A stretch of DNA of 64,000 nt from the NCBI RefSeq assembly GCF_041248615.1, contig NZ_CP158426.1. One strand, given 5' to 3'. The DNA is from Escherichia coli (GTDB taxonomy: Bacteria; Pseudomonadota; Gammaproteobacteria; Enterobacterales; Enterobacteriaceae). Position 1 is the first letter of the stretch; each line of letters opens with the position of its first letter. A program made the position numbers. This document shows positions 12,001-15,230 of this stretch, in pieces.

Positions 12001-15000
12001 ACAATGCGATCCAGTCCGTACCAGGATCGTTGCACTTCTTCAAACAGACGCAGTCCTTGCACGGTAGGATGTAATCGCCCACGTACGCGCTCAAACAATT
12101 TCAGCCCGATCACCTTCTCAAAGCGCGCAAGTTCGCGGCTGACGGTTGGCTGTGAGGTGTGTAGCAGGTGTGCCGCCTCAGTCAGGCTTCCGGCGGTCAT
12201 TACCGCATGAAAAATTTCAATATGACGTAAGTTAACGGCGGCCATTAGCGCTCTCTCGCAATCCGGTAATCCATATCATTTTTGCATAGACTCGACATAA
12301 ATCGATATTTTTTATTCTTTTTATGATGTGGCGTAATCATAAAAAAGCACTTATCTGGAGTTTGTTATGCCACATTCACTGTTCAGCACCGATACCGATC
12401 TCACCGCCGAAAATCTGCTGCGTTTGCCCGCTGAATTTGGCTGCCCGGTGTGGGTCTACGATGCGCAAATTATTCGTCGGCAGATTGCAGCGCTGAAACA
12501 GTTTGATGTGGTGCGCTTTGCACAGAAAGCCTGTTCCAATATTCATATTTTGCGCTTAATGCGTGAGCAGGGCGTGAAAGTGGATTCCGTCTCGTTAGGC
12601 GAAATAGAGCGTGCGTTGGCGGCGGGTTACAATCCGCAAACGCACCCCGATGATATTGTTTTTACGGCAGATGTTATCGATCAGGCGACGCTTGAACGCG
12701 TCAGTGAATTGCAAATTCCGGTGAATGCGGGTTCTGTTGATATGCTCGACCAACTGGGCCAGGTTTCGCCAGGGCATCGGGTATGGCTGCGCGTTAATCC
12801 GGGGTTTGGTCACGGACATAGCCAAAAAACCAATACCGGTGGCGAAAACAGCAAGCACGGTATCTGGTACACCGATCTGCCCGCCGCACTGGACGTGATA
12901 CAACGTCATCATCTGCAGCTGGTCGGCATTCACATGCACATTGGTTCTGGCGTTGATTATGCCCATCTGGAACAGGTGTGTGGTGCTATGGTGCGTCAGG
13001 TCATCGAATTCGGTCAGGATTTACAGGCTATTTCTGCGGGCGGTGGGCTTTCTGTTCCTTATCAACAGGGTGAAGAGGCGGTTGATACCGAACATTATTA
13101 TGGTCTGTGGAATGCCGCGCGTGAGCAAATCGCCCGCCATTTGGGCCACCCTGTGAAACTGGAAATTGAACCGGGTCGCTTCCTGGTAGCGCAGTCTGGC
13201 GTATTAATTACTCAGGTGCGGAGCGTCAAACAAATGGGGAGCCGCCACTTTGTGCTGGTTGATGCCGGGTTCAACGATCTGATGCGCCCGGCAATGTACG
13301 GTAGTTACCACCATATCAGTGCCCTGGCAGCTGATGGTCGTTCTCTGGAACACGCGCCAACGGTGGAAACCGTCGTCGCCGGACCGTTATGTGAATCGGG
13401 CGATGTCTTTACCCAGCAGGAAGGGGGAAATGTTGAAACCCGCGCCTTGCCGGAAGTGAAGGCAGGTGATTATCTGGTACTGCATGATACAGGGGCATAT
13501 GGCGCATCAATGTCATCCAACTACAATAGCCGTCCGCTGTTACCAGAAGTTCTGTTTGATAATGGTCAGGCGCGGTTGATTCGCCGTCGCCAGACCATTG
13601 AAGAATTACTGGCGCTGGAATTGCTTTAACTGCGGTTAGTCGCTGGTTGCATGATGACTTGCCTCCAGCGACGGAGTTGACACTGAATGACGACGTACCA
13701 GCGTCGGACTAAAGACATTAGTGATTTCCGGGAGAGGGCGATTATCCGCCAGCGCCAAAGCCAGTTCGGCAGCCTGGGTCGCCATCGTCACGATTGGGTA
13801 ACGCACGGTGGTCAGGCGCGGACGCACATAGCGTGATACCAGCACATCATCAAAGCCAATTAACGAAATCTCACCCGGTACATCAATACCATTATCATTG
13901 AGAACGCCCATCGCACCCGCCGCCATTGAATCGTTATAACAGGCTACCGCAGTGAAATTTCTTCCTCGTCCCAAAAGCTCGGTCATTGCCTGTTCGCCGC
14001 CGCTTTCGTCTGGTTCGCCAAATGTCACCAGCCGGTCATTGGCCGCAATACCACTTTCAGCAAGGGCATCGTAATACCCTTGCAGACGATCTTCGGCGTC
14101 AGAAATAGAGTGGTTAGAGCACAGATAACCAATGCGGGTATGACCTTGCTGAATTAAATGACGCGTTGCCAGCCAGGCACCGTAACGATCGTCCAGAGCA
14201 ATACAACGGTTTTCAAAGCCAGGCAGGATACGGTTGATCAGCACCATACCGGGCATTTGTTTCATTAATGAGGCTAAATCAGCATCCGGGATCATTTTGG
14301 CATGGACGACCAACGCAGCACAGCGATGGCGGATCAGTTGCTCAATGGCCTGACGCTCTTTTTGTTCGTTGTGGTAACCGTTGCCAATCAATAAAAAATT
14401 ACCGGTGTGATAAGCCACCTGTTCGACCGCTTTCACCATTGCACCGAAAAACGGATCGGAAACATCACCAACGACCAGACCGACCGTTTCAGTGGTCTGC
14501 TGCGCCAGCGCACGGGCGTTGGCGTTCGGGTGATAGCTAAGAGACTCCATTGCACTATGCACAGCCAGCCGGGAAGCTTCGCTGGCTTTGGGTGAATTAT
14601 TAATGACGCGGGAAACGGTGGCGACTGAAACGCCTGCCAGTCGGGCTACATCCTTTATGGTCGCCATGAAAATACCTTAGTGGGTAAACGCTTACATTCT
14701 TTCAGTGTTACGGAAAACGCCCGTTGGTTCAAGGGGTGGCGTGTTTTCATCGTGGGAATGTGAGCCAAACGCAAATAAGTAAGACAAAAAAAGAGATTGC
14801 AAACCTTTGGTTACACTTTGCGAAACGCTGTTGCGATTGACCGCTGGTGGCGTTTGGCTTCAGGTTGCTAAAGTGGTGATCCCAGAGGTATTGATAGGTG
14901 AAGTCAACTTCGGGTTGAGCACATGAATTACACCAGCCTGCGCAGATGCGCAGGTTTTTTTTGCCGGTCATCAATCTGTAACAGTAACCGACAATTTACA

Positions 15001-15230
15001 CACCTCGTTGCATTTCCCTTCATTCCTTTGCGTTTTCTCGCTGGCGAAGAGTCGTCGTGCAGACCACAATCAAGATCCCAGAGGTATTGATTGGTGAGAT
15101 TATTCGGTACGCTCTTCGTACCCTGTCTCTTGCACCAACCTGCGCGGATGCGCAGGTTTTTTTTCGCACCTAATTTACTGTCGCTCGCGTTCTTTATCTC
15201 GTGTAATCTCCCTCCATTCGCTTTTACTGA

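What the first reader, a model, noticed from the sequence alone, without database searches (positions are those of the whole stretch)
14881..15164. Tandem paralogous sRNAs OmrB and OmrA between galR and aas
Two about 85-nt elements share a conserved 5' seed (CCCAGAGGTATTGAT) and a conserved terminator hairpin (CCTGCGCnGATGCGCAGG plus T-run) with divergent middles, the signature of the OmrA/OmrB duplication. They are on the same strand as aas and about 195 bp apart.
Basis: partly seen in the sequence, partly recalled or inferred. Interest (0 to 1): 0.3.

Follow-up and report, generated by a model that had tools for sequence, protein, structure and literature searches.

The report
Known E. coli sRNA pair OmrB/OmrA
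These are the two well-studied E. coli small regulatory RNAs OmrB and OmrA, sitting exactly where the reference genome annotates them, so the finding is correct but ordinary.

Summary
The observation and the interpretation are both right, and the feature is already known. Window 14881-14962 (+) is omrB (b4445, 82 nt). Window 15077-15164 (+) is omrA (b4444, 88 nt). Both are 100% identical, with the same boundaries, to the curated genes of E. coli K-12 MG1655. They lie between galR (13636-14667, -) and aas (15252-17411, +).

Both copies match Rfam RF00079 over the full model (86.1 and 96.6 bits; gathering score 40). The first 15 nt are identical, as are 20 of the first 21 and 30 of the last 32. 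The middles are divergent. Start-to-start spacing is 196 bp.

Further tests agree with the literature:
- **Promoters:** omrB has -12T and omrA has the σS-type -12C. OmpR-like phased half-sites lie at about -70 to -45 (strong for omrB, weak for omrA).
- **Duplication:** the two promoters keep residual homology, so the duplicated unit included the promoter.
- **Structure:** 65 enterobacterial homologues show compensatory changes in the terminator stem and no broken pairs.
- **Targets:** the seed is complementary to the validated ompT and ompR sites.
- **Synteny:** placement next to aas and galR is widespread in Enterobacterales.

Mechanism (literature): Hfq-dependent base-pairing sRNAs that repress outer-membrane and other mRNAs, in negative feedback with EnvZ-OmpR. 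Interest is low.

The parts
14881..14962 (+). omrB (b4445), an 82-nt Hfq-dependent small RNA
   Evidence: Matches Rfam RF00079 at 86.1 bits over the full model. It is 100% identical to NC_000913.3 omrB with the same ends.
15077..15164 (+). omrA (b4444), an 88-nt Hfq-dependent small RNA
   Evidence: Matches Rfam RF00079 at 96.6 bits over the full model. It is 100% identical to NC_000913.3 omrA with the same ends.
14881..14895 (+). OmrB 5' seed (CCCAGAGGTATTGAT), the target-pairing region
   Evidence: Exact repeat, with 0.1 expected by chance. It is invariant in 65 homologues, although those were collected by this seed. It is complementary to ompT +12..+20 and to the ompR Shine-Dalgarno region. 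Pairing was validated in PMC2588501.
15077..15091 (+). OmrA 5' seed, identical to that of OmrB
   Evidence: PMC2588501.
14935..14962 (+). omrB intrinsic terminator: 9-bp GC-rich stem, 4-nt loop and U8 tail
   Evidence: Across 65 homologues three stem pairs show compensatory changes and none is broken.
15137..15164 (+). omrA intrinsic terminator: stem-loop and U8 tail
14810..14835 (+). Candidate OmpR box of the omrB promoter: three half-sites in 10-bp phase (GTTACActttGCGAAAcgctGTTGCG), at -71 to -46
   Evidence: Scores 13/18 against GTTACA x3. Only 4 of about 128,000 window positions score that high. It is conserved at -71 in nearly all tandem-copy species. This is a motif match only; binding at these bases was not tested here.
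14869..14874 (+). omrB -10 element TAAAGT (-12T, σ70-type)
   Evidence: -12T is present in 18 of 20 first copies in other species. The interpretation comes from the review PMC12692685.
15007..15032 (+). Candidate OmpR box of the omrA promoter (GTTGCAtttcCCTTCAttccTTTGCG), at -70 to -45
   Evidence: Scores 11/18, which is weak on its own: 0.13% of window positions score as high. It aligns with the omrB box and recurs at -70 or -80 in other species.
15065..15070 (+). omrA -10 element CACAAT (-12C, the σS-selective determinant)
   Evidence: -12 is C in 13 and not T in 19 of 21 second copies. σS dependence through -12C is described in PMC12692685.
13636..14667 (-). galR (LacI-family repressor), the divergent left flank
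   Evidence: ORF, Pfam LacI plus Peripla_BP domains, and annotation.
15252..17411 (+). aas (acyltransferase / acyl-ACP synthetase), the co-oriented right flank, starting 87 nt after the omrA 3' end
   Evidence: ORF, Pfam Acyltransferase plus AMP-binding domains, and annotation.

Best explanation
The region holds the two paralogous, independently transcribed small regulatory RNA genes omrB and omrA of Escherichia coli. Each has its own promoter activated by phosphorylated OmpR. omrA additionally depends on σS through a -12C in its -10 element. Each gene ends in an intrinsic terminator whose stem and U-tail also serve as the Hfq-binding module.

The single-stranded, invariant 5' end (roughly the first 10-20 nt) base-pairs with short complementary stretches near the translation start of target mRNAs such as ompT, cirA, fecA, fepA, ompR-envZ, csgD and flhDC. 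This blocks translation and often triggers RNase E-dependent decay. Because ompR is itself a target, the pair forms a negative feedback loop on its own activator. The divergent central regions allow copy-specific targets, for example btuB for OmrA.

Shown here: identity of the sequences, family membership, structure conservation, the promoter motifs, seed-target complementarity and synteny. Taken from the literature: transcription, Hfq and RNase E dependence, and regulation in vivo.
For: - Rfam RF00079 matches both copies over the full model, at 86.1 and 96.6 bits against a gathering score of 40.
- Both copies are 100% identical, with the same ends, to the curated omrB and omrA of NC_000913.3.
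- The 701-bp region is found in 5,423 of 5,426 complete E. coli genomes.
- Both RNAs fold better than shuffles, with z-scores of -2.9 and -2.7. The OmrA 5' 15 nt are unpaired in the minimum-energy fold.
- In 65 homologues the terminator stem shows three pairs with compensatory double changes and no broken pairs.
- Promoters: -12T in omrB versus -12C in omrA, conserved across species.
- OmpR-like phased half-sites lie at -71..-46 upstream of omrB (13/18) and at -70..-45 upstream of omrA (11/18).
- Seed duplexes: nt 1-9 pair with ompT +12..+20 at -19.3 and -17.8 kcal/mol. The ompR Shine-Dalgarno region gives -16.9 and -19.0 kcal/mol. All four are at or below the 5th percentile of both nulls.
- Those sites match the ones validated by compensatory mutations in PMC2588501.
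- OmpR-P activates both promoters in vitro (PMC5175337).
- σS dependence, Hfq dependence and the feedback loop are summarised in PMC12692685.
Against: Nothing contradicts it. Four minor caveats apply.

- The omrA OmpR-box motif is weak on its own (11/18), so the motif scan alone would not establish OmpR control of omrA.
- The cirA duplex computed here was no better than the nulls, although the paper validated that pairing.
- The minimum-energy fold of OmrB pairs nt 7-15 with downstream bases, unlike the Rfam consensus, which leaves the seed free.
- The simple σ70 scan found no promoter anywhere in 14600-15300. This shows the scan is insensitive to these non-consensus, activator-dependent promoters.
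Confidence: 0.99

Rival explanations
1. The two elements are chance or generic repeats, such as REP-like elements or shared terminators, with no RNA-gene function.
For: Both share a GC-rich hairpin and T-run of a kind common after genes.
Against: The seed and the terminator motif each occur exactly twice against 0.1 and 0 expected. Both copies match RF00079 over the full model. They are identical to curated ncRNA genes. They are conserved with compensatory changes across Enterobacterales.
Confidence: 0.003
2. The elements are cis-acting leaders or attenuators. Rfam gave sub-threshold hits to the leucine operon leader over both copies.
For: Leu_leader RF00512 scores 27.8 and 23.2 bits over the two copies in the permissive scan.
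Against: Both scores are far below that family's gathering score of 50 and far below the OmrA-B scores over the same bases. No leader peptide or leu genes are nearby. The similarity is most simply explained by the shared hairpin and U-run (inference).
Confidence: 0.002
3. The region encodes small proteins rather than RNAs. Mechanical ORFs overlap it, for example 14923-15090 (+, 55 aa) and 14747-14974 (-, 75 aa).
For: The ORF list contains several ORFs of 30-78 aa across the spacer.
Against: Such ORFs are expected by chance in any 600-bp stretch. Homologues differ by indels of many lengths in the middle, with total lengths of 72-110 nt. Conservation is concentrated in the 5' seed and a base-paired stem with compensatory changes. 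That is an RNA pattern, not a codon pattern.
Confidence: 0.005

Closest known systems
OmrA and OmrB (RygA/RygB; Rfam RF00079) of E. coli K-12, genes b4444 and b4445
   Same: Everything tested is the same: sequence (100%), ends, order, strand, flanking genes, promoter -10 elements, terminators and seed-target complementarity.
   Different: Nothing. The window is collinear with K-12 MG1655 coordinates from omrB to gcvB, 33.7 kb, without offset.
Other duplicated enterobacterial sRNA pairs that share a pairing region, such as the Qrr sRNAs or RyhB paralogues (from general knowledge, not tested here)
   Same: These are also paralogous Hfq-dependent sRNAs with a shared pairing region, diverged remaining sequence and partly different promoters.
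   Different: They belong to different families, with different seeds, regulators and loci. They are useful only as an analogy for why paralogues with separate promoters are retained.

Membership tests
OmrA-B sRNA family (Rfam RF00079) | Match to the family covariance model above the curated gathering score | tested here: met
   96.6 bits (15077-15164) and 86.1 bits (14881-14962) against a gathering score of 40, covering model positions 1-87 of 87.
OmrA-B sRNA family (Rfam RF00079) | Conserved 5' end CCCAGAGGUAUUGAU used for target pairing | tested here: met
   Present exactly at the 5' end of both copies. It is complementary to the validated ompT (+12..+20) and ompR 5'UTR sites. The cirA duplex was not above the null in this crude test.
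OmrA-B sRNA family (Rfam RF00079) | Conserved 3' intrinsic terminator with U-tail (Hfq-binding module) | tested here: met
   Three pairs change by compensatory substitutions and none is broken in 65 homologues. Hfq binding itself was not tested.
OmrA-B sRNA family (Rfam RF00079) | [quoted passage not shown] | tested here: met
   galR is at 13636-14667 (-) and aas at 15252-17411 (+). The same arrangement appears in other Enterobacterales: aas directly downstream in 33 of 46 loci and galR divergent upstream in 28 of 46.
E. coli omrB (b4445) / omrA (b4444) specifically | Sequence identity and same boundaries as the curated reference genes | tested here: met
   82/82 and 88/88 identical to NC_000913.3.
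EnvZ-OmpR regulon promoters | OmpR-binding half-sites (GTTACAnnnnGTTACA type) upstream of the -35 region of omrB | tested here: met
   13/18 over three phased half-sites at -71..-46, among the top 4 of about 128,000 window positions, and conserved across species. Activation by OmpR-P in vitro is shown in PMC5175337.
EnvZ-OmpR regulon promoters | OmpR-binding half-sites upstream of the -35 region of omrA | tested here: inconclusive
   Only 11/18 at -70..-45, not rare enough by motif alone. It is homologous in position to the omrB box. Experimental activation is reported in PMC5175337.
σS-dependent promoters (omrA only) | -12C in the -10 element | tested here: met
   omrA has CACAAT (-12C) and omrB has TAAAGT (-12T). 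The contrast is conserved across species. Functional mutagenesis is reported in the literature summarised in PMC12692685.
Hfq-dependent trans-acting sRNAs | Expression as a discrete transcript, Hfq binding, and RNase E-dependent target decay | not testable with these tools
   Taken from the literature only: PMC2588501 and PMC12692685.

The most novel reading that the evidence does not exclude
The window holds nothing new about the sRNAs themselves. The most novel reading left open concerns aas. The last Omr copy lies 63-189 nt upstream of aas, on the same strand, in 33 of 46 loci across Enterobacterales. That includes Pantoea stewartii, where galR lies about 2.5 kb upstream instead of adjacent. 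This placement could reflect functional coupling. Read-through of the omrA terminator, or interference from the omrA promoter, might set part of aas-lplT (lysophospholipid recycling) expression under OmpR and σS control. That would fit the recent report of Omr targets in fatty-acid synthesis. No data here test it, and simple inherited synteny is the likelier explanation.
Probability: 0.08. Interest if true: 0.3.

Novelty: already known. Interest (0 to 1): 0.04.

Why it matters
It matters only as quality control. The first-stage reader recognised a real, functional sRNA pair from raw sequence, with exact boundaries and the right order.

OmrA and OmrB are important regulators of outer-membrane composition, iron uptake, motility, biofilm formation and, more recently, carbon and lipid metabolism. 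All of this is established for the identical K-12 sequence, so nothing here opens a new question.

One practical point: NCBI's automatic pipeline leaves these genes unannotated in at least one K-12 record. An unannotated spacer in a RefSeq record is therefore not evidence that no gene is there.

Tried and rejected
- **σ70 promoter scan of 14600-15300:** it found no sites at all, missing even the experimentally known omrA, omrB and galR promoters. It therefore says nothing either way.
- **Permissive Rfam scan of the spacer:** besides OmrA-B it gave only sub-threshold hits (Leu_leader 27.8 and 23.2 against a gathering score of 50, SgrS 15.2, TeloSII_ncR49 24.5). I rejected these as chance or terminator-driven.
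- **MAFFT and RNAalifold on 65 homologues:** they could not align the divergent central hairpins, so covariation was assessed only for the outer stem (invariant, uninformative) and the terminator. No covariance-model realignment of the middle was attempted, because the identity question was already settled.
- **Genome-wide 15-mer scan:** the scan returned 120 stretches of DNA. About 550 chance matches are expected in about 600 Gb, and these loci were discarded as chance hits.
- **cirA duplex:** it was no better than the nulls. This crude duplex-energy test is too blunt for short 9-bp pairings embedded in long leaders.

Full report
**Observation**

- CCCAGAGGTATTGAT occurs exactly twice in the 64-kb window, at 14881 and 15077. 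Shuffles give 0.10 expected, and none reaches two matches.
- CCTGCGCNGATGCGCAGG followed by a T-run also occurs exactly twice, at 14937 and 15139, with 0 expected. The terminator scan calls both.
- The elements are 82 and 88 nt long. Start-to-start spacing is 196 bp and the gap between them is 114 bp.
- They are identical at 15 of the first 15 nt, 20 of the first 21 and 30 of the last 32. Only 16 of 39 aligned columns match in the middle.
- The flanking ORFs are a LacI-family regulator at 13636-14667 (-) and an acyltransferase/AMP-binding protein at 15252-17411 (+).

**Identity**

A gathering-threshold Rfam scan of the whole window matches RF00079 (OmrA-B) at 15077-15164 (96.6 bits) and 14881-14962 (86.1 bits). 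Both cover model positions 1-87 of 87, against a gathering score of 40.

The 701 bases around the pair are 100% identical to E. coli K-12 MG1655 and many other strains, and are present in 5,423 of 5,426 complete E. coli genomes. The curated reference record NC_000913.3 annotates omrA (b4444, 88 nt) and omrB (b4445, 82 nt) between aas and galR. Window copy 1 equals omrB at 82/82 bases, and copy 2 equals omrA at 88/88, with the same ends.

The window is collinear with K-12 coordinates as far as gcvB and metZWV. A PGAP-annotated K-12 record lists nothing in this spacer.

**Structure and conservation**

Both RNAs fold better than dinucleotide shuffles, with z-scores of -2.9 and -2.7. In OmrA the first 15 nt are unpaired in the minimum-energy fold. 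In OmrB the minimum-energy fold pairs part of the seed, unlike the Rfam consensus.

One scan of the species-representative genome collection with the 15-nt seed returned 120 stretches of DNA. Every seed match followed by a terminator within 130 nt came from Enterobacterales or an unclassified Proteobacteria MAG. Matches in other phyla had no terminator and are the chance 15-mers expected at that database size.

An alignment of 63 distinct homologues plus the two window copies shows an invariant seed, an invariant GGUG/CACC outer stem and a terminator stem. The seed's invariance follows partly from the way the loci were collected. In the terminator, three pairs change by compensatory double substitutions (U-A to C-G in 4 sequences, G-C to A-U in 16, C-G to U-A in 5) and none is broken. 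The central hairpins differ too much for MAFFT, so they were not scored.

**Promoters**

Taking the annotated 5' ends as transcription starts, omrB has TAAAGT at -12..-7 (-12T) and omrA has CACAAT (-12C). The review PMC12692685 reports that -12C makes omrA σS-dependent, whereas omrB is σS-independent. In other tandem-copy species the first copy has -12T in 18 of 20 cases, and the second copy has a non-T base in 19 of 21 (C in 13).

I scored both upstream regions against the published OmpR repeat GTTACAnnnnGTTACA (PMC7315122; PMC5438342).
- omrB carries three phased half-sites at -71..-46 scoring 13/18. Only 4 of about 128,000 window positions score as high.
- omrA has a weaker site at the same offset, scoring 11/18, which is not convincing alone.

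The two 114-nt upstream regions retain 41.6% ungapped identity at a 1-nt offset (shuffle p about 0.001) and 27/50 over -75..-26. The duplicated unit therefore included the promoter. OmpR-P activates both promoters in vitro from -114..+50 fragments (PMC5175337). An OmrB-specific input through RstB-RstA was reported in 2026 (PMC13425233).

**Mechanism**

Established work on this identical sequence shows that the 5' end of both sRNAs pairs with ompT, cirA and ompR mRNAs near the translation start. The effect depends on Hfq and RNase E, and repression of ompR creates an autoregulatory loop (PMC2588501).

I checked the sequence basis for this. The first 21 nt of the window's OmrA and OmrB form duplexes of -19.3 and -17.8 kcal/mol with ompT. 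The core is nt 1-9 paired with +12..+20, exactly the pairing validated by compensatory mutation. With the ompR Shine-Dalgarno region the duplexes are -16.9 and -19.0 kcal/mol. All are at or below the 5th percentile of shuffled seeds and of 40 control initiation regions. The cirA duplex (-13.6 kcal/mol) was not distinguishable from the nulls in this crude test.

Expression, Hfq binding and regulation in vivo rest on the literature, not on anything computed here.

**Synteny and copy number**

- aas lies directly downstream of the last Omr copy, on the same strand, 63-189 nt away, in 33 of 46 loci.
- galR is divergent just upstream in 28 of 46 loci.
- Many Enterobacteriaceae have the tandem pair about 188-202 bp apart.
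- Serratia, Dickeya, Pectobacterium, Rahnella and some Enterobacter or Lelliottia loci show a single Rfam hit within the flanks held. This agrees with the single-copy and chimeric cases described in PMC13425233.

**Rivals**

I considered chance repeats, a leader or attenuator (sub-threshold Leu_leader hits) and small ORFs. Each is rejected for the reasons given under rival explanations.

**Verdict**

The feature is already known in full, so interest is very low. The only open speculation is whether the conserved placement just upstream of aas reflects transcriptional coupling. I rate that unlikely.

Noticed in passing
L030:2747-4879 (Pantoea stewartii); also L059, L076/L077 and L102:4545-6729: In Pantoea and Erwinia loci the two Omr copies are about 2.03 kb apart rather than about 196 bp. 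In P. stewartii (L030) a 579-aa class B penicillin-binding protein gene (PBP_dimer plus Transpeptidase domains) lies between them, aas and an MFS transporter follow the second copy, and a molybdopterin oxidoreductase ORF lies just upstream of the first copy.
   Followed up: partly
window 45307-45349 (+): An Rfam RF02751 (ES036/CssrF sRNA) match at 46.5 bits against a gathering score of 37.6. It maps to the tcdA-mltA spacer of K-12 (about 2945917-2945959), where NC_000913.3 annotates nothing.
   Followed up: partly
window 48365-48570 (-): GcvB sRNA (RF00022, 199 bits). It maps exactly onto K-12 gcvB at 2942696-2942901, next to gcvA.
   Followed up: yes
window 43583-43879 (-): Three tandem tRNA-Met(CAU) genes at 110-bp spacing. 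They correspond exactly to the initiator tRNA genes metZ, metW and metV of K-12.
   Followed up: yes
L001 (NZ_CP032667.1, K-12 MG1655 re-sequenced, PGAP annotation): The automatic RefSeq annotation of this K-12 assembly lists no feature between galR and aas, although the sequence is identical to NC_000913.3, where omrA and omrB are annotated.
   Followed up: yes
search of window:14600-15300 against the complete E. coli genomes: Three of 5,426 genomes have no match to the region. Eighteen more have a match covering under 80% of the query. Two matching places are on records classed as plasmids. None of these was examined.
   Followed up: no
L027:8765-8853 (Enterobacter sp. BIGb0383); L037 and L114: Some species carry only one Omr gene. 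In L037 and L114 it lies between galR and aas. In L027 aas lies about 2.8 kb downstream. The L027 copy looks chimeric, with an OmrB-like ATAGGTGAA 5' part and an OmrA-like GGTACG...CGTACC central hairpin. This is consistent with the chimeras described in PMC13425233.
   Followed up: partly
L123:1939-2276 (K-12 ompR locus): NC_000913.3 annotates an antisense RNA, AsompR (b4842), overlapping the ompR 5' region where OmrA and OmrB pair. Any interplay with Omr pairing was not examined.
   Followed up: no
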